This document shows positions 1,035-16,560 of a DNA stretch of 64,000 nucleotides, piece by piece (within the stretch, counting starts at the first letter, position 1; each line of letters opens with the position of its first letter). The stretch is taken from positions 2,022,288 through 2,086,287 of the forward strand of contig OZ241380.1 of the NCBI GenBank assembly GCA_965200765.1, written 5' to 3'. Origin of the DNA: Arenicellales bacterium. Its GTDB lineage: Bacteria > Pseudomonadota > Gammaproteobacteria > Arenicellales > JAJDZL01. The position numbers were made by a program, and so were the translations under genes. The notes under the pieces are model-generated. The model searched no databases and had not been told where the DNA came from. It saw nothing but the letters and a program-made list of their open reading frames with translations.

Positions 1035-1074
1035 TGTCAAAATTCCAATTTTAACTACAATTCAATTAAGGCTT

Positions 1075-1548
1075 TATTATGGAAGCACACCCGACCCATA
1101 GTAAAGGCTGCCTTCATCATGGAAGCACACCCGACCCATAGTAAAGGCTGCCTTCATCATGGAAGACCATCCGACCCATAGTAAAGGCTGCCTTCATCAT
1201 GGAAGACCATCCGACCCATAGTAAAGGCTGCCTTCATCATGGAAGACCATCCGCTCCATAGTAAAGGCTGCCTTTATCATGGAAGTCCATTCGCTCCATA
1301 GTAAAGGCTGCCTTTATCATGGAAGACCATCCGACCCATAGTAAAGGCTGCCTTCATCATGGCAGTTCATTCGCTCCATAGTAAAGGCTGCCTTCATCAT
1401 GGAAGTTCATCCGCTCCATAGTAAAGGCTGCCTTCATCATGGCAGTTCATCCGCTCCATAGTAAAGGCTGCCTTCATCATGGCAGTTCATCCGCTCCATA
1501 GTAAAGGCTGCCTTCATCATGGCAGTTCATCCGACCCATAGTAAAGGC
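1075..1548. repeat. Non-coding tandem repeat, 40-bp period, about 12 units: 27-bp near-invariant dyad plus 13-bp variable linker
   Basis: CCATAGTAAAGGC starts at 1096, 1136, ... 1536. Core is CCATAGTAAAGGCTGCCTTYATCATGG; linkers range from AAGCACACCCGAC to CAGTTCATCCGCT. Confidence 0.97.
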
Positions 1549-4653: not shown

Positions 4654-4698
4654 CATGAACAAACAAATATTTTGTACCCGGCTACGAAGGAGGTGAAT

Positions 4699-6000
4699 AT
4701 GACTGCAGATCTCTCGAGAATCGCAACCGAAAAAGGCATTCGATATTTTTTAATCAGCTATGTTGATTTGTTTGGGGGACTACGCGCGAAGTTGGTGCCG
4801 AGTTCTGCCATTGGCGACATGCAAAAAGATGGCGCCGGTTTTGCCGGGTTTGCAACCTGGCTTGACATGACCCCGGCGCATCCTGACATGCTTGCAATTC
4901 CGGATCCGGACAGTTTGATACAACTGCCCTGGAAACCGGAAGTTGGCTGGCTGGCCGGCGATCTGTGGATGGATGGCAAAGAAGTGGAACAATGTCCGCG
5001 CATCGTTCTGAAACGACAATTGGCCCGCTACGCTGAAAGAGGCTATACACTGAAAACCGGAGTTGAATGTGAATACATGCTTCTGACTCCCGATGGACGA
5101 AGCATTTCCGACGATCGCGATGTACAGGAAAAGCCTTGTTATGACCAAACTGCCTTGATGAGACGTTATGACGTCGTCAGCAGTATCTGCGATGCAATGA
5201 TCGAACTGGGCTGGGGTCCGTATCAAAACGATCACGAAGATGCGAACGGACAATTCGAGATGAATTGGGATTACAGTGATGCTTTGATGACTGCCGACCG
5301 GCATGTATTTTTCAAGTTCATGGTGAAAAGCATCGCCGAACAGCATGGTTACCGTGCGACGTTCATGCCGAAACCATTCATGGATCTGACTGGCAACGGT
5401 TGTCATGCGCATGTCTCCGTGTGGGAGCAAGACAATAATGTTTTTCTGGATGAATCAGGAGAATTGGGCTTGTCAAAGATTGCCTATCAATTTCTTGGCG
5501 GTATTGTTTACAGTGCCCGCGCACTATGCTCGCTTTTCAGTCCGACTGTAAACAGTTACAAACGTATTAACGCACCGCGAACCCGTTCCGGTGCATCATG
5601 GTCTCCCAACTCTGTCACTTACACTGGCAACAATCGTACTCACATGATTCGAATACCGGATGCCGGCCGTTTTGAATTGAGATTAATGGATGGTTCTGCA
5701 AACCCGTATTTGATGCAGGCAGGAATCGCGCTGGCGGGAATGGACGGAATGGATAATCATCGCGACCCGGGGAAACGGCTTGACATTGACATGTATGCCA
5801 ATCCCGAGTTGGCCGGCGATGTACAGAAACTGCCGTTGAATCTGATGGATGCCATTCGGGTCACTCGTGACTGGAGTGTGATCCGGGATGCGATTGGTGG
5901 TGAAATTATTGACAGCTACTGCAACATGAAAGAAACAGAGTGGAATAACTACATGTCGCATCTGTCCGAGTGGGAGCGCAACAACACACTGGATTGCTAA
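4699..6000 (+). CDS. gmaS: Type III glutamine synthetase family / gamma-glutamylmethylamide synthetase (GlnT/GmaS)
   Basis: GAGFAGFATWLDMTPAHPD, DHEDANGQFEMN, FMPKPF..TGNGCHAH. AAGGAGG RBS precedes ATG 4699. Adjacent to glxBCD. Confidence 0.88.
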   Translation: MTADLSRIATEKGIRYFLISYVDLFGGLRAKLVPSSAIGDMQKDGAGFAGFATWLDMTPAHPDMLAIPDPDSLIQLPWKPEVGWLAGDLWMDGKEVEQCPRIVLKRQLARYAERGYTLKTGVECEYMLLTPDGRSISDDRDVQEKPCYDQTALMRRYDVVSSICDAMIELGWGPYQNDHEDANGQFEMNWDYSDALMTADRHVFFKFMVKSIAEQHGYRATFMPKPFMDLTGNGCHAHVSVWEQDNNVFLDESGELGLSKIAYQFLGGIVYSARALCSLFSPTVNSYKRINAPRTRSGASWSPNSVTYTGNNRTHMIRIPDAGRFELRLMDGSANPYLMQAGIALAGMDGMDNHRDPGKRLDIDMYANPELAGDVQKLPLNLMDAIRVTRDWSVIRDAIGGEIIDSYCNMKETEWNNYMSHLSEWERNNTLDC

Positions 6001-6169
6001 ATATCAGCAATCATTGATAAACTTGAAATAATAAATTCAGCATGCCAGTACTGGATTTCGTCCGGTACTGGTTTTTTTTCGAGAACAGGTAATTCTCTCC
6101 CAATACAACTACGGGATGCGCGCCTGTGTCGGAAGTGAATATTACACGGAAAGTTCTGGTTTCTCCTTT
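5977..6169. repeat. Left copy of diverged direct repeat: live gmaS 3' end, terminator and decayed anmK 3' end
   Basis: Aligns by eye with 8215..8410 (CGCAACAACACAYTGGATTGCTAAAT...TCTCCCAATACAACT...TTCTCCTTT). Confidence 0.9.
6045..6079 (+). terminator. Rho-independent terminator after gmaS
   Basis: Hairpin CCAGTACTGGA-TTTCG-TCCGGTACTGG followed by T8. Confidence 0.85.
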
Positions 6170-6229
6170 CCAACGGGAAACACTCTAGACCAACATTTTG
6201 CTTGACATTGATTTGAAAATGCGTAGAAT
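6167..6229 (+). promoter_or_regulatory. TTTCC-N4-GGAAA dyad plus sigma70-like promoter of unit 1
   Basis: TTTCCAACGGGAAA at 6167; TTGACA (6202) - 16 nt - TAGAAT (6224). Confidence 0.7.
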
Positions 6230-6260
6230 AATCAAAATTGAGTAACCTTCACAAACAACG

Positions 6261-6521
6261 GTGAATGCAATGAAAGTTTCCCAAGAAGACAGAATCAGAC
6301 TAGGCAATGCTCTTGCAGAAGCAAGGAAGAATGGCATTGGGTATAACAAATGGTTCGATTCTCTGTCCCCTGAAGACCAGAAGATAGAAGACTACCTGGA
6401 TGACGAGTTCTGTATGATGTCCATCAAGCAAACTATCGAGGAAAACGGTGGCGAAATGCCAGATCCTGATAAGAATCCGGAGTTGTTCTTTCCTTGGAAA
6501 CCAAAGGTAAAAAAGCAATAA
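6261..6521 (+). CDS. Small acidic protein, putative antitoxin copy A1 (family not recognised)
   Basis: 86 aa. Stop overlaps the toxin start (TAATG). Paralogs at 7271 and 7779. Confidence 0.7.
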   Translation: MNAMKVSQEDRIRLGNALAEARKNGIGYNKWFDSLSPEDQKIEDYLDDEFCMMSIKQTIEENGGEMPDPDKNPELFFPWKPKVKKQ

Positions 6522-6958
6522 TGGCGAAAAGAGCCCGTCGCAGAAGAAAAGGGAATCAATGGGAAGTCGTAGGAATGCGGAAGAACATTGATGCCATGAT
6601 TGGTAAATTGAATTTGTCTGACGAATTAAGGAACGATCTTCAAGAATTGGTGAAGTCGCTAACGAACAATCCCGACGTAGTGGACGGCAGACGCATCAAG
6701 AAATTTGGAAAGCAAAAGGGCAGGCAATACTGGCGGGCGCGATCGTACGGAGAGTCAGAAAACTATCGAGTGATGTATTATCTCAAGCCATATCGAAAAA
6801 TGATAGTCGTCACTAAGATCGATGATAGAGAAACAGTTTATCAAGGATCATTGAATGAAAAATTCCGAAGAATTCCGATTTTTCGCCAACTGCCTAGTCC
6901 TTTCTTGGCTGATCTGATGCGAATTGATCGACCAAATAGTAGCCGTAGCCTCCACTGA
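6521..6958 (+). CDS. RelE/ParE-superfamily toxin-like protein
   Basis: ATG at 6521 is coupled to A1. NP..IKK..YWRAR..YRVMYYL..IVVTKIDDRETVY resembles the RelE pattern YRxxYxI...VxxIGHRxxVY. Confidence 0.7.
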   Translation: MAKRARRRRKGNQWEVVGMRKNIDAMIGKLNLSDELRNDLQELVKSLTNNPDVVDGRRIKKFGKQKGRQYWRARSYGESENYRVMYYLKPYRKMIVVTKIDDRETVYQGSLNEKFRRIPIFRQLPSPFLADLMRIDRPNSSRSLH

Positions 6959-7178
6959 GGGAGTCAAGCACCTGCTGTACGAAGAACTGAATATTGTCGG
7001 ATCTTGAATGGGGTTAGTCTGGCATGCAAATGACAAAGTACATTAGATTGTGAATTCTTGCACAGGCCGAGTTTATAATATTTTCGAATCCCGAAAAATC
7101 GGGGAAGTAAGACTCTGAGAAGTGGCAGGCACCGGCACGTCTGAAACTCGTAAATCGCTGAAAATTTACTTTAGATTC

Positions 7179-7241
7179 TTTCCAACGAGAAACACTCTAG
7201 ACAAACATCTTGCTTGACATAAATTTGAAAATGCGTAGAAT
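7179..7241 (+). promoter_or_regulatory. Dyad plus sigma70-like promoter of unit 2
   Basis: TTTCCAACGAGAAA at 7179; TTGACA (7214) - 16 nt - TAGAAT (7236). Confidence 0.65.
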
Positions 7242-7270
7242 AATTAATATTCGAGTAACCTTCACAAACA

Positions 7271-7534
7271 ATGGTGAAAACAATGAAAGTTTCCCAAGAA
7301 GACAGAATCAGACTAGGCAATGCACTTGCAGAAGCAGAGAAGAATGGAACCGGATATGATGAATGGTTCGATTCGCTGTCCCCGGAAGACCAGAAGAAAG
7401 AAGACTACCTGGACGACGAATTCTGCATGATGCTCGTCAAGCAAACTATCGAGGAAAACGGTGGCGAAATGCCAGATCCTGATAAGAATCCGGAGTTGTT
7501 CTTTCCTTGGAAACCAAAGGTTAAAAAGAAATAA
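7271..7534 (+). CDS. Putative antitoxin copy A2 (orphan; toxin deleted)
   Basis: 87 aa, near-identical to A1. Stop is followed directly by the post-toxin segment ATGACAAAGTACATTAG. Confidence 0.7.
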   Translation: MVKTMKVSQEDRIRLGNALAEAEKNGTGYDEWFDSLSPEDQKKEDYLDDEFCMMLVKQTIEENGGEMPDPDKNPELFFPWKPKVKKK

Positions 7535-7683
7535 TGACAAAGTACATTAGATTGTGAATTCTTGCACAGGCCGAGTTTGTAATATTTTCGAATCTCGAAA
7601 AATCGGGGAAGTAAGACTCTGAGAAGTGGCAGGCACCGGCACGTCTGAAACTCGTAAATCGCTGGAAAATTGTCTTTAAATAT

Positions 7684-7746
7684 TTTCCAACGGGAAACAC
7701 TCTAGACAAACCCCTTGCTTGACATTAACTTGAAAATGCGTAGAAT
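7684..7746 (+). promoter_or_regulatory. Dyad plus sigma70-like promoter of unit 3
   Basis: TTTCCAACGGGAAA at 7684; TTGACA (7719) - 16 nt - TAGAAT (7741). Confidence 0.65.
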
Positions 7747-7778
7747 AATAACAGACTGAATAACCTTCACAAACAACG

Positions 7779-8027
7779 GTGAATGCAATGAAAGTTTCCC
7801 AAGAAGACAGAATCAGACTAGGCAATGCTCTTGCAGAAGCAAGGAAGAATGGCATTGGGTATAACAAATGGTTCGATTCGCTGTCCCCGGAAGACCAGAA
7901 GAAAGAAGACTACCTGGACGACGAATTCTGCATGATGCTCGTCAAGCAAACTATCGAGGAAAACGGTGGCGAAATGCCAGATCCTGATAAGAATCCGGAG
8001 TTGTTCTTTCCTTGGAAACCAAAGTAA
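7779..8027 (+). CDS. Putative antitoxin copy A3
   Basis: 82 aa. A 1-nt deletion relative to A1 (CCAAAGTAA versus CCAAAGGTAA) gives an earlier stop. Confidence 0.68.
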   Translation: MNAMKVSQEDRIRLGNALAEARKNGIGYNKWFDSLSPEDQKKEDYLDDEFCMMLVKQTIEENGGEMPDPDKNPELFFPWKPK

Positions 8028-8037
8028 AAAAGCAATA

Positions 8038-8118
8038 ATGGCGAAAAGAGCCCGTCGCAGAAGAAAAGGGAATCAATGGGAAGTCGTGGGAATTTTGCGG
8101 GAACTAGAATGGGATTGA
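8038..8118 (+). pseudogene. Truncated RelE-like toxin (first 18 codons, then an internal deletion)
   Basis: MAKRARRRRKGNQWEVVG is identical to the 6521 ORF start, then joins sequence homologous to about 6990-7040. Confidence 0.85.
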
Positions 8119-8214
8119 TCTGGCATGCAAGTGACAAAGTACATTAGATTGTGAATTCTTGCACAGGCCGAGTCTGTAACAATTTCGCCTTGAAATTCTT
8201 TCCAACAGGAAATA

Positions 8215-8410
8215 CGCAACAACACATTGGATTGCTAAATTTCAGCAATGATGTATATTGATGCATTCAAACACTAAATCAATATTTGCCAGTACTCGGA
8301 TTCGTCCGGTACTGGCTTTTTTCATGGATAGGTAATCTCTCCCAATACAACTTTGGAACGCGCACCTGTAACGGAAGGAATATTGCCCGGTAGGTTTTGG
8401 ATTCTCCTTT
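8215..8410. repeat. Right copy of diverged direct repeat: dead gmaS 3' end, terminator and live anmK 3' end
   Basis: CGCAACAACACATTGGATTGCTAA repeats the last gmaS codons (RNNTLDC*). Hairpin GCCAGTAC..GTACTGGC-T6 at 8288-8322. Confidence 0.9.
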
Positions 8411-9428
8411 GTGCCAGCCATGCAAATGCACATGCCTCTACCAGGTCCGGCGGAATGCCAAGTTTTGTTGTGTCATGGACCTGAACATTTGAACCTTCGC
8501 GCAGGTGTTGCATAATTGCCTGGTTCTTCGCGCCACCACCACAAACATAGATCTCATCCACTGCAGGAAGTCTTGCACCGATTTCGAACAAAATAGACTT
8601 TGCGGTAAATTTGGCAAGTGTGCTTTGAACTTCTGACTGTTTGAGTACCAGACCCAGTCTATCCAGTTGTTGTAATAGCCAGTCTATACCGAACTCACGT
8701 GTATCAAGACTTTTCGGTATTGGTCGGGAAAAGTACGGCGCACTCATCAAAATATCCAGGAGTTCTTCATTCGGTTCTGACGACAAAGCCCATTGTCCAT
8801 CAGCATCGTACCGTTGGCCCTTGTGCATGAAGGTCCAAGCATCGCATAAAACATTTCCGGGGCCAGTGTCAAACCCGATTGTGTCCTCGGATTCATTCGA
8901 AGGCAAAAAAGTAACGTTTGAAATCCCGCCGATATTGACAATTGCCCGAGCCTTGTTACGACCTCTGAATACTGCTTGGTGAAATGCAGGTGCCAGAGGC
9001 GCACCCTGCCCACCCGCCAGCATGTCTGCTTCACGAAAATTCGATACAACCGGCAACCCGGTTTGATTGGCAACAACGCTGGCATCACCCAATTGCCAAC
9101 TGAACGACGGCCGGGTTTCCGGACTGTGCAATATGGTCTGACCGTGGCAACCGACGGCATTGATTCCGAAGATTTCATTGCCAGTCATCAATTTGCGAAT
9201 GGATTGGGCATAGAGTTGACCCAGCTCGGCTTCCATTTCACGAGCAAGCTCGGATTCCCGGATGGGAGACTTCAGCAACTCTTTGAGCTTGGCCCGAGTA
9301 TTGTCTGAATAGGGGGTGTACTCGCTACCTAGTACCTGCGGCTGGTTGTTCTGATGAAATGAAACAAGGACAGAATCAATGCCATCCATGCTTGACCCGG
9401 ACATCAGGCCGATATAGCAGGACTCCAT
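8322..9428 (-). CDS. anmK: Anhydro-N-acetylmuramic acid kinase
   Basis: IGLMSGSSMDGID, GCHGQT, GGQGAPL, NIGGISN, GFDTGPGN, CGGGAKN. Confidence 0.96.
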   Translation of the reverse strand: MESCYIGLMSGSSMDGIDSVLVSFHQNNQPQVLGSEYTPYSDNTRAKLKELLKSPIRESELAREMEAELGQLYAQSIRKLMTGNEIFGINAVGCHGQTILHSPETRPSFSWQLGDASVVANQTGLPVVSNFREADMLAGGQGAPLAPAFHQAVFRGRNKARAIVNIGGISNVTFLPSNESEDTIGFDTGPGNVLCDAWTFMHKGQRYDADGQWALSSEPNEELLDILMSAPYFSRPIPKSLDTREFGIDWLLQQLDRLGLVLKQSEVQSTLAKFTAKSILFEIGARLPAVDEIYVCGGGAKNQAIMQHLREGSNVQVHDTTKLGIPPDLVEACAFAWLAQRRIQNLPGNIPSVTGARSKVVLGEITYP

Positions 9429-9451
9429 AGAGACGAATGATTCAGTTGCGG

Positions 9452-11119
9452 CTACTCGGCCGACTTCAATTTCTCCTTGACTTCGGGAGGCGTATACGCA
9501 AGTTTCGGTTGTTCAATCAGATCAAGCATTTTCGAATGATCAGCAACTTGCTGTTCAAATTGCTCTTTGTACTGTTCCGGAATTGGCTTGCCGTTGGGCA
9601 ATGGATAGTTTACCGGGTCGCGATGCTTGCCATTCACGCGGAATTCGTAGTGCAAATGCGGTCCTGTCGACACACCGGTTGATCCGACGTAACCGATGGT
9701 CTGCCCTTGCTCGACTACCTTGCCTACATGAAATTTCTTTGCAAACCGGCTCAAATGAGCATAATAGGTTTCATACTTGCTACCATGCCGGATAACAATC
9801 GTCTTGCCGAATCCGCCTTTCCAACCCATGAACGCAACAATCCCCGCTGCTGTAGAGCGGATTGGGGTTCCTGTTTTCGCTCCGTAATCCACACCTCTGT
9901 GCGGCATCCATTTCTTGTAAATCGGATGAAATCTGCTTTTGCTGAAAACCGATGTAATTCTGGCAAACTCTAGCGGTGCGCGCAAGAAATGTCCACGCAT
10001 GTTTTCGCCATGCTGGTCGTAATATATTGTTCTTCCATAGTTGTCCACATGACGATGCGCATCAAGCACTCCCTTTGCATTTTGATATCTCGCGACAATG
10101 ATGATCGGATCTCCTACACTTGTACCATCAATGTATCCCTGCTTGTAAACAACGCAAAATTCATCGTTCTTTCGTGCTTGTCTGACAAAGTCAATTCTGG
10201 ACGAGAACAGGTCAACAAATGCGAACAGCACCGGCTCCGGGATGCCCGTTTCATAGCCGCTGGTGAACAGGTTGTACTTGACGGTTCCACAAGCACTGTG
10301 GGTTTGATATTCAGGTTGAAGAGTCTTTTGACTGAAATAGTATTGTTCGTCTACACGAAATACCGAGGAGATTTCAAGCGGGCCGGTTTGCAGTTCAACC
10401 TTGGCGAATGATCCGTCCCGATAGGTAGCGATTCTGAGTTCATCCCCGACTTTTAGATTTCGAAACCATTTTTGCTTGGGTGTATTTGCAACTCTGAATG
10501 CATCGATTGCCGGCAAGCCCAGGCGTTGAAATATTCCTGTCAATGAGTCACCCGGTGTCACGTCGCTACTTTTCCAGATCAGCTGGGCTTCGTCTATTTC
10601 TGGCAATGGGTCTTGCTTGTTCTTCGGCTGTATGGAAGGATGTGTCTGTTTCAGAATTGCGCTGAGGGAACCTGCTTCTTCCGCGACAGATGATTCCAGT
10701 AGCATCATTTCGTCGTCCAGATACAAGTACATCAGTACTAGCTTGCTTCTGCGATAGTACTCCATGCCCAGCAAATCGCCGCGGGAATTTCTGGCGACAC
10801 GCAGTTCGTCATTCGGGTGTATCACCTTCAAGTACTTCTTCGCCTTCGGGAATTTGATCATCTCCTTGACCAAATCCATGTCGAGATCGATGCGCTTGAA
10901 AATTCTGCTGAGCGAGTCGCCGGAGTGAACAATTTCGAAAGTCCAGCGGACTTCAGGCAAGATACTTGCCGAGCTACGTCCGGTCAACTCTTCCTGCAAC
11001 GCGGCATCGGTAACAAGAGATGAATTTGCAATGGGCGACACGATGGGCAACACGAACGCAAGCAAAATTGCCATTCGTTTGCCAAATCGATTGATCGTCA
11101 AGTTTTTCTTCACATTCAC
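9452..11119 (-). CDS. M23 family peptidoglycan DD-endopeptidase (OapA/LysM-like N-terminal domains)
   Basis: HRGVDYGA, YYAHL and TGPHLHYEF zinc motifs; upstream of anmK. Confidence 0.92.
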   Translation of the reverse strand: MNVKKNLTINRFGKRMAILLAFVLPIVSPIANSSLVTDAALQEELTGRSSASILPEVRWTFEIVHSGDSLSRIFKRIDLDMDLVKEMIKFPKAKKYLKVIHPNDELRVARNSRGDLLGMEYYRRSKLVLMYLYLDDEMMLLESSVAEEAGSLSAILKQTHPSIQPKNKQDPLPEIDEAQLIWKSSDVTPGDSLTGIFQRLGLPAIDAFRVANTPKQKWFRNLKVGDELRIATYRDGSFAKVELQTGPLEISSVFRVDEQYYFSQKTLQPEYQTHSACGTVKYNLFTSGYETGIPEPVLFAFVDLFSSRIDFVRQARKNDEFCVVYKQGYIDGTSVGDPIIIVARYQNAKGVLDAHRHVDNYGRTIYYDQHGENMRGHFLRAPLEFARITSVFSKSRFHPIYKKWMPHRGVDYGAKTGTPIRSTAAGIVAFMGWKGGFGKTIVIRHGSKYETYYAHLSRFAKKFHVGKVVEQGQTIGYVGSTGVSTGPHLHYEFRVNGKHRDPVNYPLPNGKPIPEQYKEQFEQQVADHSKMLDLIEQPKLAYTPPEVKEKLKSAE

Positions 11120-11810
11120 AGTTGAAAATACCCTCGCCTAGCGTTGAATAAATCGTAGTCGAAAATCAATCGTCCAGTCTGTTGTGTTAGCCGTATATAC
11201 TCAATATACAAATTGAAAACCAAAAGAAAGCCAAATTATACTTGAAATCTGCCTGAATTTCCAAACTTTATCCGCTGTCTTTGAGAAAGACGCGTATTGA
11301 AACGCCATTGCCATGATGGTAGTCACCAAGATCATACTTGGTCCAATACGGCAAGGACCACCGTTCAACCAGGCATGAATTTTGCCCTCTTGTTCTCAAC
11401 TCTGCTGAACTTCTCGACGAAGAATCAACCTGGAATTCGTGTTTTGGTATACAAGAAAAATACTATTCACCTCCCCTTCATCGACTGACTTGATGTCATG
11501 AATCTGCAATGCACAGAAAATTGGCAGTGCCCACAAAGTGAAATGCACAGGATTCAGGACAGACTCTGTAACGCGATACCAGATTAGGCGCACCAACCCT
11601 TGTGCGGTTCGCTACCAAGTCAGGACTGCTCGGTCCAACAGTGCTTCTTGGCAAAAACAACACAAAAATTGGCAAATTTACCGTTTACAGGGGAAATTCA
11701 AGTCTTGTACCCTTGATATTGACAGGTTTAGGCATTGCAACCTTAAATTTGTTACTATAATGTTAAACTGATGTATTCATTTTCACTAACGAGAATTTGT
11801 ATTTTCTCTG

Positions 11811-14291
11811 ATGTACAACAATTTCTTTACACAAGCGCTGGGCGAAAGCAAAACACCGTTTGCTTACCAAGTCGCACTCGCCGAAAAAGAATGGCCTGAT
11901 GCGTTGGTTGCACCCACCGGATTTGGTAAAACCGCTGCAGTCATTCTCGGATGGGCATGGAAGAATGCATCCAGGCAGAAAGTCCCCAGACGACTGATTT
12001 ATTGTTTACCAATGCGTACACTTGTTGACCAGACAGAGCAAAACGCAAAAATTTGGATAGAGCAGCTATGTAAAGCAAATAAGAGTTGGAGATCAAACTT
12101 GCCTGACCCCGACAAAGACATACATGTACTTATGGGCGGTTCGACTGATTCAAAATGGTATGAAAGGCCAGAACGTAAAGCAATTCTCATTGGAACCCAA
12201 GACATGCTGTTGAGCCGTGCTTTGATGCGCGGCTACGCGATGAGTCGATATCGATGGCCAGTTGACTTTGCGTTGCTTCACAACGATACACAATGGGTTT
12301 TCGACGAGGTGCAACTGATGGGGTCAGGGCTTGCCACCTCAGCTCAATTGGAGGGATTTCGCAATAAATGGGGAAACTGCCTTCCTTCTGGAAGTTTGTG
12401 GATCTCGGCAACCCTGGAACCAAGTTGGCTTCACACCTTTGATTTCCAGCGAAAACCTGAAGTCTGGCAATGCCCCGAACAGTTTTCCGAAGACAAAAAG
12501 TCAGCTCGAGTTCGTAAGTTACTCAATGCCCCCAAACCATTGGAAAAATCAGAAATTGCACCTGTAAGTGCCAATAAATCTGACTTGCTTGCTTATGTGA
12601 AGGCCATAGCAAATGAAGCAATTTCGCTCCATAGAGCGAATCAGATGACTCTGGTAATAGTCAATACAGTTGAACGGGCACAAGGAGTTTACAACGAATT
12701 GGTGAAGTGCCATAAAGGTGAAGAACATCATTTGGCACTGATTCACTCTCGATTTCGCCCCGCCGATCGTAGATTGCAAATGGAAAAATTGCCACAACCG
12801 GGACAACAGAAAAATCTGATTGTGGTCTCAACGCAGGCTATTGAGGCAGGGATTGACATGTCGGCATCTGTATTGCTGACAGAAGTGGCACCAATATCAT
12901 CTTTGGTGCAACGTTTTGGACGAGTCAATCGCTACGGGGAATTGAATTCAAAAGGTGGTGGGTTGATTCGCTGGATTGATCTTGTAGGTGCCGCCGAGGA
13001 CAATATAGGGAAAGAAAAACTGTCCGCACCTTACACACTTGAAGAAGTTGAGAGAGGCGGGGAATATATTGGGTCCAAAAATGATGCGTGTCCGTCGCAA
13101 CTTCATCAACCATTATCAACCGATCATTCACATCAATCGGTGATTCGCTCCAAAGACATGCTCGACTTATTTGACACCGATCCGGATTTAACCGGCTTCG
13201 ATGTCGATGTCTCCCCGTTCATTCGTGAAAGTATGGACACTGACATTAGAGTGTTCTGGCGCGATCTGGATTCCAAAGACAAACAAGAAAACCCGGAACC
13301 ACTTCCAACCAGAGAGGAGTTGTGTACGATACCGATCGGACGAGCAAAATCTTGGCTGAACAATGTAAAAAGAAAAGACAAGGACTCTGTATTTCAATTG
13401 AATCCAAGAGCAGGGTCAGCAACCGATACATCGCCTTGGACCCGACTAACAGAAGAACCGTGGCCAGGTATGGTCCTGATGATCAAAAGTTCAGTCGGTG
13501 GATATTCCTCTACAACAGGATTTGATCCGCAACAAAATAAATCAGTCGAATCAATTGAAATCAGTGCAAAAATAAATTCAGCAGTTGATGAACTTTACCA
13601 TTCTGATTCGGATTCTAGAAAGTCTGTGTTCGTCAGCCTTGAAGATCATTTGCAACATGTTGCAAATGAGGCAGAACTTCTGTGCGACGAACTCGAAATT
13701 GTTAATGGTTTTCGCAATCAGATCATTCAGGCATCAGCTTGGCATGATCTGGGCAAGGCACACAAAGAATTTCAATCGCGAATGAAATCAACAAACGAAG
13801 CAGAACATCCGCGCCCCGATAAAATTCTTGCCAAAGCACTCGCATACGCTCCCGATAAAAACAGTAGCCAAAAATACTTCAGACACGAACTTGCATCTGC
13901 ACTGGCCTACTTGTCTCACCACAATTGGACTCGAGAGGCAGATCTCATTGCTTATTTGATAGCGGCGCATCACGGCAAAGTACGTATGAACATTCAGTCA
14001 CTGCCGTCTGAACGATCAACCCAGAGTAGAATCGCTCGCGGTGTGATTGAAGGCGATGAACTGCCTGCATTTGATCTGCCATCAGGGGAATCTTGGAAAC
14101 GGGACAAACTTACTCTGACAATCATGGAGTTGGGAGAACATCCTGAAACTGGCGCAAGTTGGACTGAGCGTACTCAAAAACTACTTGGTGACTATGGGCC
14201 CTTTCAACTCGCGTGGCTCGAAGCGTTAGTACGAATATCTGACTGGCGAGCATCAAAAAAGGAAGAGACTGGAGAATATGAAACAAAATAG
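11811..14291 (+). CDS. cas3: Type I-G (I-U) CRISPR helicase-nuclease Cas3 with C-terminal HD domain
   Basis: APTGFGKT, YCLPMRTL, DEVQ, SATL, HSRF, STQAIEAG, QRFGRVNR; C-terminal WHDLGK and AAHHG. Confidence 0.95.
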   Translation: MYNNFFTQALGESKTPFAYQVALAEKEWPDALVAPTGFGKTAAVILGWAWKNASRQKVPRRLIYCLPMRTLVDQTEQNAKIWIEQLCKANKSWRSNLPDPDKDIHVLMGGSTDSKWYERPERKAILIGTQDMLLSRALMRGYAMSRYRWPVDFALLHNDTQWVFDEVQLMGSGLATSAQLEGFRNKWGNCLPSGSLWISATLEPSWLHTFDFQRKPEVWQCPEQFSEDKKSARVRKLLNAPKPLEKSEIAPVSANKSDLLAYVKAIANEAISLHRANQMTLVIVNTVERAQGVYNELVKCHKGEEHHLALIHSRFRPADRRLQMEKLPQPGQQKNLIVVSTQAIEAGIDMSASVLLTEVAPISSLVQRFGRVNRYGELNSKGGGLIRWIDLVGAAEDNIGKEKLSAPYTLEEVERGGEYIGSKNDACPSQLHQPLSTDHSHQSVIRSKDMLDLFDTDPDLTGFDVDVSPFIRESMDTDIRVFWRDLDSKDKQENPEPLPTREELCTIPIGRAKSWLNNVKRKDKDSVFQLNPRAGSATDTSPWTRLTEEPWPGMVLMIKSSVGGYSSTTGFDPQQNKSVESIEISAKINSAVDELYHSDSDSRKSVFVSLEDHLQHVANEAELLCDELEIVNGFRNQIIQASAWHDLGKAHKEFQSRMKSTNEAEHPRPDKILAKALAYAPDKNSSQKYFRHELASALAYLSHHNWTREADLIAYLIAAHHGKVRMNIQSLPSERSTQSRIARGVIEGDELPAFDLPSGESWKRDKLTLTIMELGEHPETGASWTERTQKLLGDYGPFQLAWLEALVRISDWRASKKEETGEYETK

Positions 14292-16560
14292 TATCCGCAC
14301 GGGTTGTTCATCCAAACCCCTCTTAAGCTATTTGAAAGCCTTGGGTATCTTGCGCCTTGTTTCAAATCCAGAAAACAATGTTAACGAGGTTGCGGCTGAT
14401 AGTCACATCCGAGGTTGGTGGGTTAACCAGCAATTTCATATTAATACTAGTCTCAATAGCGAAGAATTAGTTGAATTTTTTCTCTACAACTATTCTCCAA
14501 GTGCGGTAACTACCCCGTGGAACGGAGGGAGTGGTTTCTACAAAAAAGACAATAAAGAAGCAGTCAGTTCACTCCTGGCTCCATCAATTTCCCCTCGCTT
14601 CAGAACTCTGGCAACTGCTATTGAACAGGCAAATGCTGTGGTAAAGCGACTAGGTTTAGAAGAAGCGCCCAAAAATGGAGGCAAACGTGCGCTCATTGCA
14701 GAGCTTCGCAATACTTTTCCTGATTTCGTACTCGAATGGCTAGACGCTTCACTTGTACTTTCAGGAGACACCCTAAAATTTCCTCAAATTCTCGGAACAG
14801 GAGGCAATGATGGGCGATTGGATTTTACGATTAATTTTCATCAAAGACTCTTGTCAAATGAAAATTCAAATAAATTAAAGGGGCTATTTGATGTTACTAC
14901 CGGCTTGCCGACGAGCGAGGCGAATCGTTTGTTGCGAAACAGCCTTTTCGATGACTGCACCCACGGGTTTCACTCTGTTGCAGTCGGCCAATTTGACCCA
15001 GGTGCGGTCGGTGGTCCCAATGCTATTAGTGAAAGTTTTGATGCGGCTCCCAAGGTTAACCCATGGGACTATGTGTTATCTATTGAAGGAGCAATTATGT
15101 TTGCAGGTGCAGCGACTCGTCGTCATCAAGCTTCAAAAATCTCAGGGGCTAGTTTTCCATTTACTGTACGAATGACTGGTGCTGGTAGTGGCAATGTATC
15201 AAGTTCAGATGAAATTAATGCGCGTGCAGAATTTTGGGCACCGCTTTGGAACCAACCATCTAGTTATAGTGAACTTCGAGGATTGCTTAAAGAGGGTCGT
15301 GCCGTTCTGCAGGAAAAAATTGCTAGTGACGGACTGGATTTCGCTCGCGCCGTGGCAAGTCTTGGAATTAATCGTGGAATTGAGAGTTTTCAAAGATATG
15401 GCTTTGTGATGCTATCAGGGAAAGCTTACTTGGCAACTCCGATCGGTGTTCGAAAAGTTTCATCACCTAGTGCAAATTCAGCAAGTTTAATCGACGACCT
15501 TGATACTGGAGATTGGTTAAATCGTGTGAGTAAACTTGCCAAGGGTGAAAACTCTTCATCTCGCGGAGCGGTGTCCTTTCAGCGTTTGGAAAATGCACTT
15601 TTTGCAATGTCTGAAAAAACCAATTTCTCCCCGCAACCTGTGCAACTTGCGCTTGAAGCGTTAGGTGAGTTAGTAGAATGGCTACAGTATAACAAAGAGG
15701 TTGTTGAAAATAAACAGATGCCGCCGCCGCCTCCACGCTTGTCCAGAGCTTGGCAAAGAATTTGTGACGACAACACACCTGAATTTCGAATTGCAAGTGC
15801 ACTCGCAAGCTTGGGCTGGCAAACACCCAAATCCCGGGAAGCGTCCACTGAAGGTGAACTTCCATCAACAAAGCGTTCAATTCCCATGGCTGCACATGTT
15901 GCACCAGTAGAAATAGGGTCAATTTTCAGGAGATATCGTAGTTGGGATACACAATCTCGATGCTTTCTTAACGTATGGCGTGGAAGTGACCTGGAGTCAA
16001 TTTTAATCAGTGTATTAAATCGCAGACTCGTCGAACAGTCTATAGACAAATCTGAAGTGAAACAGCTGTATGGCTTATCCAAAGTACGGTTATCTGATAT
16101 TGAAGCATTTTTCTCACCAACCTTTGATGATGCACGATGTTTACGTTTACTTGCAGGGCTCGTTTGGACTGAACCAGCAAAGATTTTCAATAAACAAAAA
16201 TTGGATTCTCACAGTAAAGTTGTACCATTTTCTTACGCAGTATTGAAATTGCTGTTCTCTCCAACCGATACTATTCAATATTGCAAGCAAGCAAATCTGC
16301 TACCACCAGATTGCGAAATTCCGATACCAGCAAAGATTATCCCTCGTTTAAGGAGTGGATATATTGATGAGACCATTGAAACAGCACTTCAAAGACTTCG
16401 TGCATCTAATGTACCTACACCATTTCACTCATCAAGAGTTAAACATATAGGTGTCACCGGAAGACGCTTGGCAGCTTCGCTACTAATTCCACTGAATAAC
16501 TTTGAGTCAAAAATATTGCTTCAAAGGGTTTGTGATGTGGAAGAGATACAGAATATTTAG
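14278..16560 (+). CDS. csx17: Type I-G large subunit Cas8g (Csx17)
   Basis: LLSYLKALG, TPWNGGSGFY, LGTGGNDGRLDF, NPWDYVLSIEGA; directly after cas3. Confidence 0.9.
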   Translation: MKQNSIRTGCSSKPLLSYLKALGILRLVSNPENNVNEVAADSHIRGWWVNQQFHINTSLNSEELVEFFLYNYSPSAVTTPWNGGSGFYKKDNKEAVSSLLAPSISPRFRTLATAIEQANAVVKRLGLEEAPKNGGKRALIAELRNTFPDFVLEWLDASLVLSGDTLKFPQILGTGGNDGRLDFTINFHQRLLSNENSNKLKGLFDVTTGLPTSEANRLLRNSLFDDCTHGFHSVAVGQFDPGAVGGPNAISESFDAAPKVNPWDYVLSIEGAIMFAGAATRRHQASKISGASFPFTVRMTGAGSGNVSSSDEINARAEFWAPLWNQPSSYSELRGLLKEGRAVLQEKIASDGLDFARAVASLGINRGIESFQRYGFVMLSGKAYLATPIGVRKVSSPSANSASLIDDLDTGDWLNRVSKLAKGENSSSRGAVSFQRLENALFAMSEKTNFSPQPVQLALEALGELVEWLQYNKEVVENKQMPPPPPRLSRAWQRICDDNTPEFRIASALASLGWQTPKSREASTEGELPSTKRSIPMAAHVAPVEIGSIFRRYRSWDTQSRCFLNVWRGSDLESILISVLNRRLVEQSIDKSEVKQLYGLSKVRLSDIEAFFSPTFDDARCLRLLAGLVWTEPAKIFNKQKLDSHSKVVPFSYAVLKLLFSPTDTIQYCKQANLLPPDCEIPIPAKIIPRLRSGYIDETIETALQRLRASNVPTPFHSSRVKHIGVTGRRLAASLLIPLNNFESKILLQRVCDVEEIQNI

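What the first reader, a model, noticed from the sequence alone, without database searches (positions are those of the whole stretch)
6167..8212. Tandemly triplicated toxin-antitoxin unit that kept three antitoxins and three promoters but only one toxin
Seen: three units of 1012, 505 and 515 bp each carry the same TTGACA-N16-TAGAAT promoter and small ORF. The RelE-like gene is intact in unit 1. It is removed entirely in unit 2 (junction at AATG microhomology) and cut to 18 codons in unit 3 by a different deletion. Inference: two independent toxin losses with antitoxin retention suggest selection for antitoxin excess, for example anti-addiction against incoming elements or detoxification after amplification.
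Basis: partly seen in the sequence, partly recalled or inferred. Interest (0 to 1): 0.65.

Follow-up and report, generated by a model that had tools for sequence, protein, structure and literature searches.

The report
Toxin-antitoxin array with spare antitoxin genes
A rare RelE-like toxin-antitoxin gene pair in a marine-type gammaproteobacterium has been copied into a short tandem array in which only one copy keeps the toxin, and the spare antitoxin genes look preserved by selection; it extends a known theme and is not a new kind of system.

Summary
Three tandem units (1012, 505, 515 bp) each carry a near-consensus promoter and an 83/79-aa acidic ORF, and only unit 1 keeps the 145-aa basic ORF. 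The same locus appears in six other assemblies of sister strains, so it is not an assembly artefact.

The 145-aa protein is a very divergent RelE/ParE-superfamily member. All signals are weak but point the same way. Its partner has no detectable sequence or fold relative. The whole family is confined to this Arenicellales lineage.

The claim of two independent toxin losses is not shown. Eight of ten toxin-less units across strains share one ~416-bp deletion junction. The stub-less form (window unit 2, also in L119) spans that deletion and may be a nested 93-bp trim. An independent loss does exist in a sister lineage, whose arrays sit after nuoM and carry a different deletion that was also propagated.

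Orphan antitoxin genes are under purifying selection (pN/pS 0.15; dN/dS 0.08-0.22 at dS up to 0.48). Their promoters and presumed toxin-binding tail are conserved.

Most likely they act as extra templates that lower the toxin:antitoxin synthesis ratio. Anti-addiction has no support, because no homologue was found on plasmids or phages. The array lies inside an old duplication of the convergent gmaS/anmK gene ends.

The parts
4672..6000 (+). Glutamine-synthetase-like gene. It is probably gmaS, because it follows GATase / 227-aa / Glu_synthase genes. It is intact and uses the left copy of the duplicated segment for its last 7 codons.
   Evidence: Pfam Gln-synt_C E = 1.9e-90. Upstream gene context in L111/L112. 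The gmaS name is inferred from context.
5977..6169 (.). Left copy of the duplicated flank. It holds the last 24 nt of the GS-like gene, the bidirectional terminator, and a pseudo-copy of the anmK 3' end (6094-6169).
   Evidence: Direct repeat with 8215-8410, 85% identity.
6044..6072 (+). Intrinsic terminator hairpin between the convergent genes. It has a decayed second copy at about 8288-8316.
   Evidence: 13-pair stem plus T run. Repeat family D8.
6167..6183 (.). Boundary motif copy 1, TTTCCAACGGGAAACAC. The other copies are at 7179-7195, 7684-7700 and 8199-8214.
   Evidence: (family D5). In L111 and L114 the leftmost copy is replaced by a longer anmK'|GS' junction.
6170..7181 (+). Unit 1, the complete unit: promoter, antitoxin, toxin and spacer.
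6202..6229 (+). Promoter P1, TTGACA-N16-TAGAAT.
   Evidence: 11/12 match.
6270..6521 (+). A1, the 83-aa acidic antitoxin candidate (pI 4.8). It is predicted as three helices plus a disordered tail.
   Evidence: No Pfam, NCBIfam, PHROG, PDB or BFVD relative.
6521..6958 (+). T, the 145-aa basic protein (pI 10.6). It is a divergent RelE/ParE-superfamily toxin candidate with an Arg-rich N-terminus and a conserved ~40-aa C-terminal extension.
7087..7168 (.). 82-bp spacer segment present in units 1 and 2 but absent from unit 3 in the four assemblies with three units. It contains a 49-bp piece (7118-7166) of a short repeat family found elsewhere in the genome.
7182..7686 (+). Unit 2, toxin-less and without a stub. 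The junction is AATAA|TGACAAAG.
   Evidence: The same junction occurs in L119 unit 2.
7214..7241 (+). Promoter P2.
7283..7534 (+). A2, an orphan antitoxin gene of 83 aa.
7687..8201 (+). Unit 3, toxin-less, with an 18-codon toxin stub. It lacks the 82-bp spacer segment.
7719..7746 (+). Promoter P3.
7788..8027 (+). A3, an orphan antitoxin gene of 79 aa. A 1-nt deletion gives an earlier stop. The same 79-aa form is the toxin-paired copy in L120 and L121.
8038..8118 (+). Toxin remnant. It has 18 homologous codons and then reads out of context (26-aa ORF). The equivalent stubs in L111 unit 3 and L112 unit 2 carry a stop at codon 8, so the remnant is decaying.
8215..8410 (.). Right copy of the duplicated flank. 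It holds a pseudo-copy of the last 24 nt of the GS-like gene (8215-8238), the decayed terminator copy, and the true anmK 3' end.
8322..9428 (-). anmK (anhydro-N-acetylmuramic acid kinase), intact.
   Evidence: Pfam AnmK E = 1.2e-118.

Best explanation
This is a lineage-restricted type II toxin-antitoxin module. It pairs a basic, very divergent RelE/ParE-superfamily toxin (T, 145 aa) with a new acidic three-helix antitoxin (A, 83 aa). The two genes are translationally coupled and driven by a near-consensus sigma-70 promoter.

The module lies inside an old duplication of the 3' ends of the convergent gmaS-like and anmK genes (~316 bp in its longest surviving form), so both host genes stay intact. 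The unit was amplified in place by unequal recombination.

One microhomology deletion of ~416 bp removed T from one unit. That toxin-less unit was then propagated, and in some strains it was trimmed by a further 93 bp. Units keep exchanging sequence by gene conversion.

The orphan A genes, each with its own promoter, are maintained by purifying selection. Most likely (inferred, not shown) they are extra templates for the same antitoxin. T would then be made from one promoter and A from three. This lowers the T:A synthesis ratio, keeps the resident toxin neutralised or raises its activation threshold, and lets copy number tune that ratio.

Shown here: the anatomy, conservation across strains, the shared deletion junction, selection on the orphans, and an independent recurrence in a sister lineage. 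Inferred: toxicity, A-T binding, autoregulation and the dosage effect.
For: Anatomy:
- Units, promoters and ORFs.

Toxin-antitoxin features:
- The A stop and T start overlap as TAATG.
- pI is 4.8 for A and 10.6 for T.
- A is predicted as three helices plus a disordered C-tail, pLDDT 81.

RelE/ParE affinity of T:
- PHROG 1213 'RelE-like toxin' gives E = 9.7e-4 for T, 1.2e-5 for the own-genome paralogue T', and 3.4e-6 for P0018.
- P0018 is found by the T profile at E = 7.5e-5. It passes Pfam ParE_toxin at 34.2 bits against a cut-off of 23.
- The natural PDB hits by profile are mostly RelE/YoeB-type: RelG Rv2866 0.0023, aRelE 0.053, YoeB 0.065, RelE 0.28-2. At E 0.24-0.58 there are also DUF4365, cofilin/ADF and cohesin hits, and the best-scoring hits overall are designed repeat proteins (5.3e-4).
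- hhalign to E. coli RelE gives E = 6.9e-4 (probability 27%, 32 columns). It puts Y82-R83 on Y60-R61, R103 on R81 and Y107 on Y87.

Real and conserved:
- The same locus occurs in L111, L112, L119, L120, L121 and L114. Flanks of L111 and L112 are ~97% identical to the window. T is intact (145 aa) in all seven assemblies.
- 8 of 10 toxin-less units share one junction.

Selection on A:
- Pairwise dN/dS is 0.07-0.44.
- Orphans alone show 21 synonymous versus 14 nonsynonymous variants, pN/pS 0.15, P = 8.4e-8.
- Coding sequence is 14% variable, against 33% upstream and 23% in the spacer.
- Residues 54-76 are almost invariant in all copies.

Sister lineage (90% nucleotide identity in the nuo operon):
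- Arrays lie after nuoM with a different, shared toxin deletion.
- Orphan-orphan dN/dS is 0.08-0.22 at dS 0.28-0.48.

Flank duplication and ancestral long junction.
Against: - No direct hit of T reaches a curated threshold. Pfam Gp49 gives E = 0.12 and NCBIfam gives nothing.
- The AlphaFold model of T is poor (pLDDT 52) and its fold search was meaningless.
- A has no recognisable DNA-binding domain and no relatives, so its antitoxin role rests on context.
- Gene conversion with the toxin-paired copy could keep the orphans intact without direct selection on them.
- One orphan (L119 unit 3, a 5x-coverage contig) carries a frameshift.
- If A autorepresses all three promoters, total A may not rise much.
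- No expression data could be obtained.
- T itself shows only moderate constraint, dN/dS 0.41-0.54.
Confidence: 0.55

Rival explanations
1. Neutral by-product. A selfish toxin-antitoxin unit was amplified by unequal crossing-over. Toxin copies are free to decay. The orphan antitoxin genes have no role of their own and stay intact only because gene conversion from the essential, toxin-paired copy keeps overwriting them.
For: - Antitoxin variants are distributed as a mosaic, and antitoxin types swap between paired and orphan positions among strains. This shows frequent conversion or recombination.
- The toxin stubs are decaying: a stop at codon 8 in two units and a GTG start in L113.
- One orphan is frameshifted in L119.
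- Copy number varies between 2 and 3 units.
Against: - In the sister lineage two adjacent orphans differ by dS 0.48, so they are not homogenised, yet dN/dS is 0.16.
- All ten orphan units examined keep a promoter. Nine match TTGACA-N16-TA[GT]AAT and L119 unit 2 has TTGACG. Nine of the ten keep an open frame.
- Toxin-less units were propagated in two independent lineages.
Confidence: 0.2
2. Anti-addiction or immunity. The orphan antitoxins neutralise related toxins brought in by plasmids, phages or other mobile elements, or protect against loss of such elements.
For: - The idea is established for orphan antitoxins in general, as a hypothesis (PMC7192599, PMC7354431).
- The family is mobile within the lineage. 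Homologous arrays sit at different loci in genomes about 90% identical.
- Two divergent paralogous pairs exist in the same genome.
Against: - No relative of A was found in PLSDB plasmids, INPHARED phages or IMG/VR.
- None was found in 35 other genomes of the family or 400 of the class.
- The orphans share an almost invariant presumed toxin-binding tail with the paired copy. They do not diversify towards other toxins.
- The paralogous pairs differ completely in that tail.
Confidence: 0.12
3. It is not a toxin-antitoxin system. The small acidic protein is a regulator or chaperone with its own function, which would explain why it is amplified. The 145-aa protein is a non-toxic RelE-fold accessory protein.
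For: - A has no similarity to any known antitoxin.
- T matches RelE/ParE only weakly and carries unusual N- and C-terminal extensions.
Against: - The two-gene architecture, TAATG coupling and charge complementarity fit a toxin-antitoxin pair.
- Three paralogous A-T pairs always occur together.
- The equivalents of RelE R61, R81 and Y87 are conserved.
- Only T is ever deleted, never A, in two lineages.
Confidence: 0.1
4. Assembly artefact: the repeats are a mis-assembly of one unit.
For: Many short-read contigs of this family break inside the array.
Against: - Seven assemblies from several samples show the array with unit-specific substitutions. Three of them are differently covered contigs of one metagenome assembly (13x, 22.6x, 5x).
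- Units differ from each other by 5-10%, which is not how collapsed or expanded repeats look.
Confidence: 0.02

Closest known systems
RelBE / ParDE-type type II toxin-antitoxin modules (RelE/ParE superfamily; Pfam PF05016 ParE_toxin, PF05973 Gp49/HigB-like)
   Same: - The antitoxin gene lies upstream and is translationally coupled to a small basic toxin.
- There is a sigma-70 promoter in front.
- The toxin core shows the beta-alpha-alpha-beta3 order and the YR...R..VY signature, aligned with RelE R61, R81 and Y87.
- The antitoxin is acidic with a disordered C-tail.
   Different: - The toxin is far below family thresholds and is linked only transitively.
- It has an Arg-rich N-terminal 18 residues and a conserved ~40-aa C-terminal extension.
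- The antitoxin has no RHH, HTH, AbrB or Phd domain and no detectable relatives.
- The family is confined to one Arenicellales lineage.
Orphan (solitary) antitoxins and the anti-addiction model (surveyed in Klebsiella, PMC7192599; reviewed in PMC7354431)
   Same: Antitoxin genes persist after their toxin has been lost. The toxin gene is the partner that decays.
   Different: - Here the orphans sit in tandem right next to the intact cognate pair.
- Each has its own strong promoter.
- They share one deletion junction, were propagated as units, and show purifying selection.
- No mobile-element-borne toxin is known for them to counter.
Arrays of orphan immunity genes in polymorphic-toxin systems (CDI, Rhs and T6SS orphan or acquired immunity clusters)
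   Same: There are tandem arrays in which protective genes outnumber toxin genes. The arrays are built by recombination between repeated modules.
   Different: - Those toxins are domains of large delivered proteins, and the immunity gene follows the toxin.
- Here the toxin is a free-standing 145-aa protein with no delivery domain.
- Here the protector gene precedes it.
Toxin-antitoxin cassettes in chromosomal integron arrays (for example Vibrio superintegrons)
   Same: Promoter-bearing toxin-antitoxin units sit in a repeated array with a recurring boundary motif.
   Different: - There are no attC-type inverted repeats.
- There is no integron integrase nearby.
- The units are paralogues of each other, not unrelated cassettes.

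Membership tests
Type II toxin-antitoxin system, RelE/ParE superfamily | The toxin belongs to the RelE/ParE sequence or fold superfamily. | tested here: met
   The feature is met only weakly and partly transitively.
- PHROG 1213 'RelE-like toxin': E = 9.7e-4 for T, 1.2e-5 for T', 3.4e-6 for P0018.
- P0018, hit by the T profile at 7.5e-5, passes Pfam PF05016 at 34.2 bits against a cut-off of 23.
- PDB profile hits are mostly RelG, aRelE, YoeB and RelE (E 0.002-2), alongside designed repeat proteins and a few unrelated hits at E 0.24-0.58.
- hhalign to RelE gives E = 6.9e-4, probability 27%.
- The direct Pfam hit is below threshold (Gp49 E = 0.12).
- The structure model is too poor to test the fold.
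Type II toxin-antitoxin system, RelE/ParE superfamily | A two-gene operon with a small antitoxin upstream, overlapping or coupled to the toxin, and with its own promoter. | tested here: met
   The TAATG overlap is at 6519-6523. The promoter scores 11/12 at 6202-6229. The same layout is seen in two divergent paralogous pairs and in all relatives.
Type II toxin-antitoxin system, RelE/ParE superfamily | The antitoxin carries a known DNA-binding fold (RHH, HTH, AbrB, Phd/YefM) plus a disordered toxin-binding region. | tested here: not met
   A disordered C-tail is predicted. The three-helix N-terminal part matches no Pfam, NCBIfam or PHROG family and no PDB or BFVD fold.
Type II toxin-antitoxin system, RelE/ParE superfamily | RelE-type catalytic or ribosome-contact residues are present (E. 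coli RelE R61, R81, Y87). | tested here: inconclusive
   The alignment places invariant R83 on R61, and near-invariant R103 and Y107 on R81 and Y87. However, the alignment covers only 32 columns at low probability.
Type II toxin-antitoxin system, RelE/ParE superfamily | The toxin arrests growth, and the antitoxin binds and neutralises it. | not testable with these tools
   This needs expression and rescue assays.
Anti-addiction module (chromosomal antitoxin against a toxin carried on a mobile element) | A homologous toxin-antitoxin pair exists on plasmids, phages or other incoming elements. | tested here: not met
   No relative of A was found in PLSDB, INPHARED or IMG/VR. Mobile elements of Arenicellales are poorly sampled, so absence is weak evidence.
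Integron gene-cassette array | attC recombination sites (imperfect inverted repeats) bound each cassette, and an integron integrase lies nearby. | tested here: not met
   No inverted repeats were found in 5000-9500. The neighbouring genes are Fic, mgs-like, GS-like, anmK, an M23 peptidase and Cas3, with no integrase.
Orphan immunity arrays of polymorphic toxin systems | The toxin is a C-terminal domain of a large delivered protein, and the immunity gene lies downstream. | tested here: not met
   T is a free-standing 145-aa ORF and A lies upstream of it.

The most novel reading that the evidence does not exclude
Antitoxin-only units are a selected, recombination-adjustable 'ratio rheostat'. Arrays of this family would gain and lose complete and toxin-less units by unequal crossing-over. 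A lineage could then heritably and reversibly tune how easily its RelE-like toxin is released, for example in phage defence or stress arrest. The tuning would be carried out by an antitoxin of a previously unseen fold. That toxin-less units arose independently and were propagated in two lineages would then be convergent evolution of this tuning device.
Probability: 0.18. Interest if true: 0.65.

Novelty: new variant of a known kind. Interest (0 to 1): 0.45.

Why it matters
Orphan antitoxins are common in genomes, but their role is rarely testable. Usually one cannot tell a decaying remnant from a selected gene. This locus offers several things together:
- the cognate pair and its orphans side by side;
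- a dated series of events (flank duplication, insertion, amplification, toxin deletion, propagation, trimming);
- seven assemblies of the locus for comparison;
- an independent replicate of toxin loss in a sister lineage.

The data favour selection on the spare antitoxin genes. That makes the gene-dosage, or ratio-control, view of toxin-antitoxin regulation directly testable with a small set of constructs. The locus also adds a toxin-antitoxin family whose antitoxin has no known relative, and a very divergent RelE/ParE toxin with unusual terminal extensions. It does not reveal a new kind of system.

Tried and rejected
- **Integron-like cassette array.** Rejected because there are no attC-type inverted repeats and no integrase.
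- **Unit ends derived from the flanking genes.** Local alignments of the unit 5' and 3' ends against the GS-like and anmK ends score no better than shuffles. Only the 17-nt boundary motif resembles the anmK'|GS' junction. Whether that motif is a collapsed junction or the element's own end remains open.
- **IS or MITE carrying the unit.** The 49-bp piece shared with five other genomic sites belongs to a repeat of only ~170-300 bp with no transposase.
- **Structure route for the toxin.** The AlphaFold model has pLDDT 52, and the Foldseek hits (polo-box domains and others) are meaningless.
- **Structure route for the antitoxin.** The model is good (pLDDT 81), but there is no match in PDB or BFVD.
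- **Wider relatives.** Scans of GTDB genome contigs and JGI metagenome contigs found none. Thirty-five other genomes of the family and 400 of the class had none. The 5.8-billion-protein search found only nine clusters, all from this lineage.
- **Rfam.** Nothing was found in 5800-8600.
- **Empty-site comparison.** The only same-genus genome shares no detectable DNA similarity at this locus.
Full report
**1. What is there**

The window is part of a closed 3.29-Mb genome. The closest anmK relatives are Arenicellales (Gammaproteobacteria) MAGs, at no more than 58% amino-acid identity.

Between a glutamine-synthetase-like gene (4672-6000, +) and the convergent anmK (8322-9428, -) lie three tandem units:
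- unit 1, 6170-7181 (1012 bp);
- unit 2, 7182-7686 (505 bp);
- unit 3, 7687-8201 (515 bp).

The glutamine-synthetase-like gene has Pfam Gln-synt_C and follows GATase, a 227-aa gene and Glu_synthase. It is therefore probably gmaS, which is an inference from context.

Each unit starts with TTGACA-N16-TAGAAT, an 11/12 match to consensus and the three best sites in the region. Each then has an ORF of 83 aa (A1, A2) or 79 aa (A3).

Only unit 1 continues into a 145-aa ORF, T (6521-6958). Its ATG overlaps the A1 stop as TAATG.

Unit 2 lacks 509 bp between two AATG copies. Unit 3 keeps 18 codons of T and lacks ~416 bp between two GAAT copies.

**2. Not an artefact, and conserved**

Exact-protein look-ups recovered the same locus in six other assemblies from several samples and two projects:

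| Assembly | Notes |
|---|---|
| L112 | 776-kb contig, 22.6x |
| L111 | 411-kb contig, 13x |
| L119 | 46-kb contig, 5x |
| L120 | 33 kb |
| L121 | contig ends inside the array |
| L114 | 2.3 kb, ends in unit 1 |

- L111, L112 and L119 come from one metagenome assembly.
- The flanks of L111 and L112 are ~97% identical to the window.
- T is intact (145 aa) and sits in unit 1 in all seven assemblies.
- It is followed by two toxin-less units in the window, L111, L112 and L119, and by one in L120.
- Units within an array differ by 5-10%, which argues against mis-assembly.

**3. What the proteins are**

*The toxin candidate T.* T is basic (pI 10.6) and A is acidic (pI 4.8). T has no significant direct Pfam or NCBIfam match; the best is Gp49/HigB-like at E = 0.12. 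Several weak signals nevertheless point the same way:
- PHROG 1213 'RelE-like toxin' matches T (9.7e-4), the own-genome paralogue T' (1.2e-5) and the remote relative P0018 (3.4e-6).
- P0018 was found with the T profile in 1.8 billion representatives at 7.5e-5. It passes Pfam ParE_toxin at 34.2 bits against a cut-off of 23.
- A profile of T and its remote relatives (alignment A4) hits mostly RelE-type chains among natural PDB proteins. These are RelG Rv2866 at 0.0023, archaeal RelE at 0.053, YoeB at 0.065 and RelE at 0.28-2, always at the homologous C-terminal strands. The best-scoring hits overall are designed repeat proteins (5.3e-4, taken as spurious). DUF4365, cofilin/ADF and cohesin chains also appear at E 0.24-0.58.
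It aligns invariant Y82-R83 with Y60-R61, R103 with R81 and Y107 with Y87.

The AlphaFold model of T shows the expected strand-helix-helix-strands order but has pLDDT 52, so its fold search was useless.

T also has an Arg-rich N-terminus (MAKRARRRRK) and a ~40-aa C-terminal extension that is conserved across the family.

*The antitoxin candidate A.* A is predicted with good confidence (pLDDT 81) as three helices plus a disordered tail. It has no relative in any sequence library or in PDB or BFVD.

*Distribution of the family.*
- There are 9 clusters for T and 9 for A among 5.8 billion proteins.
- There are 9 hits in 1.8 billion representatives.
- The family is absent from 35 other genomes of the taxonomic family, 400 of the class, the GTDB contig scan, JGI metagenomes, plasmids, phages and IMG/VR.
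- The genome has two further divergent A-T pairs, ~27% identical for T and ~38% for A. One lies between tRNA-Pro and tRNA-His, the other after a 466-aa gene that looks TolC-like by eye and was not scanned.
- These pairs share the A core motif WFDSLSPEDQ.IE..LDDEFC but not the C-terminal tail. This is the usual pattern of a conserved N-terminal domain and a toxin-specific tail.

I conclude that this is a type II toxin-antitoxin module of the RelE/ParE superfamily with a new antitoxin family. Toxicity and binding remain inferred.

**4. History of the array**

*Flank duplication.*
- The array is bracketed by a direct duplication of the convergent gene ends, 5977-6169 versus 8215-8410, at 85% identity.
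- It comprises the last 24 nt of the GS-like gene, the bidirectional terminator and ~76-88 nt of the anmK 3' end.
- The GS-like gene uses the left copy and anmK uses the right copy, so both genes are intact.
- In L111 and L114 the left junction is longer. The anmK pseudo-fragment runs 52 nt further and is joined to a 39-nt fragment of the GS-like gene (positions -91 to -52 from its stop), which then abuts unit 1.
- This is the signature of a ~316-bp tandem duplication, or an equivalent Campbell-type event. The array is inserted in the second GS' fragment, where 27 nt are missing.
- The two copies are 85-86% identical, whereas orthologous copies between strains are 95-97% identical. The duplication is therefore much older than the strain split.

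*Boundary motif.*
- The motif TTTCCAACGGGAAACAC appears at all four unit boundaries.
- It may be a collapsed version of the anmK'|GS' junction, or it may be the unit's own end.
- Apart from this motif, the unit ends show no homology to the flanks. I leave the question open.

*Toxin deletions.*
- Alignment of all units shows that 8 of 10 toxin-less units across the seven assemblies have the identical junction GTCGTGGGAAT|TTTG. This indicates one deletion that was then propagated by duplication or conversion.
- The stub-less junction of window unit 2 recurs in L119 unit 2.
- That junction encloses the ~416-bp deletion and differs from it by exactly 93 bp.
- At the same array position, L112 and L111 have the stub form.
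- A nested trim is therefore somewhat more likely than an independent loss.
- Antitoxin types swap between paired and orphan positions among strains. For example, the ERNGTGYDEW type is orphan in the window but paired in L119, L120, L121 and L114. Recombination therefore blurs orthology.
- 'Two independent losses in this array' is not demonstrated.

**5. An independent replicate**

Contig L009 is 90% identical to this genome across the nuo operon. It carries an array of the same family directly after nuoM, in the order A+T, A+deleted T, A+T, A....

Its toxin-less unit, and those of L113 (two in a row), L115 and L116, all share a different, two-part deletion that keeps ~31 toxin codons.

Toxin loss with antitoxin retention has therefore arisen at least twice in the family. 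Each time the toxin-less unit was propagated.

**6. Are the orphans selected?**

Within the window's lineage:
- Pairwise dN/dS among antitoxin copies is 0.07-0.44.
- Variable sites by codon position are 10, 5 and 17.
- Coding sequence is 14% variable, against 33% upstream and 23% in the spacer.
- Among nine intact orphan copies there are 21 synonymous and 14 nonsynonymous variants. The neutral expectation is 81% nonsynonymous. This gives pN/pS 0.15, binomial P = 8.4e-8.

In the sister lineage:
- Orphan-orphan comparisons give dN/dS 0.08-0.22 at dS 0.28-0.48.
- That is too diverged for recency or homogenisation to explain the intact frames.

All ten orphan units examined keep a promoter. Nine match TTGACA-N16-TA[GT]AAT, and L119 unit 2 has TTGACG. 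The presumed toxin-binding tail (residues 54-76) is almost invariant in all copies.

Counter-evidence:
- Gene conversion is clearly active.
- One orphan in a 5x contig is frameshifted.
- The toxin stubs decay.
- T itself is under moderate constraint, dN/dS 0.41-0.54.

**7. Mechanism**

The best-supported reading is that the orphans supply the same antitoxin from extra promoters. T is then synthesised from one template and A from three. This keeps the resident toxin neutralised or raises its activation threshold. Unequal recombination can change the ratio, as 2 and 3 units are both seen.

This is inference from anatomy, selection and the invariant tail. No expression or binding data exist.

The anti-addiction reading lacks any known incoming homologue and is not favoured by the invariant tail. 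Pure neutral decay is disfavoured by the selection data. A reading in which this is not a toxin-antitoxin system is disfavoured because only T is ever deleted, and because A and T co-occur in three paralogous pairs.

**8. Comparison with what is known, and verdict**

Orphan antitoxins and the anti-addiction hypothesis are well known (PMC7192599, PMC7354431). RelE/ParE modules are the commonest toxin-antitoxin type.

What is unusual here:
- the tandem, promoter-bearing orphans lie beside their cognate pair;
- they are selected and they recur across lineages;
- the antitoxin family is unrecognised;
- the insertion sits in a duplicated convergent-gene junction.

I rate this a new variant of a known kind, of moderate interest.

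Noticed in passing
window 1072-1548; L111 2404-3200; L112 2539-3055: A 40-bp-period tandem array lies between the Fic gene and the mgs-like/gmaS-like gene cluster. It differs in length between sister strains: about 477 bp in the window, ~517 bp in L112 and ~797 bp in L111 (self-hits). It is therefore copy-number polymorphic.
   Followed up: partly
window 7118-7166 and 7622-7670; G000 C1 near 536460, 2155887, 2445409, 3185925, 3202905: The spacers of units 1 and 2 contain a 49-bp piece (GAAGTGGCAGGCACCGGCACGTCTGAAACTCG...). It belongs to a short repeat family (~170-300 bp, no long ORF shared) scattered in the genome. Unit 3 lacks the 82-bp segment that holds it in the four assemblies with three units.
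   Followed up: partly
G000 C1 61320-61869 (L020 2821-3667): A divergent paralogous A'-T' pair sits between tRNA-Pro and tRNA-His. The T' ORF has no stop before the tRNA-His gene and reads through it, giving a 199-aa ORF. The same 199-aa form exists in a relative (P0020).
   Followed up: partly
G000 C1 2396928-2397480 (L021 2887-3568): A second divergent A''-T'' pair lies downstream of a 466-aa ORF that looks like a TolC-type outer-membrane efflux gene (by eye, not scanned). About 900 bp further on, an ORF translation contains GTATSETR, which resembles the spacer repeat of the main array.
   Followed up: no
L009 8029-8240; G000 C1 about 1913400 (minus strand): The position right after nuoM is variable in this group. 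L009 carries the toxin-antitoxin array there, while the window's genome has an 827-aa open frame (stop to stop; the likely ORF starts MPIQENAL...) instead of nuoN directly.
   Followed up: no
L119 6305-6545: The third antitoxin copy of strain L119 has a 1-nt insertion exactly where the R19 (AGG) and E19 (GAG) variants differ, which causes a frameshift. It is either a real pseudogene or an error in a 5x-coverage contig.
   Followed up: partly
window about 11800-14900 (L112 13414-16465): A Cas3 (HD plus helicase) gene, followed by a large gene with no Pfam hit, lies just beyond the M23 peptidase gene. The array therefore sits about 3-4 kb from a Cas3 gene.
   Followed up: no
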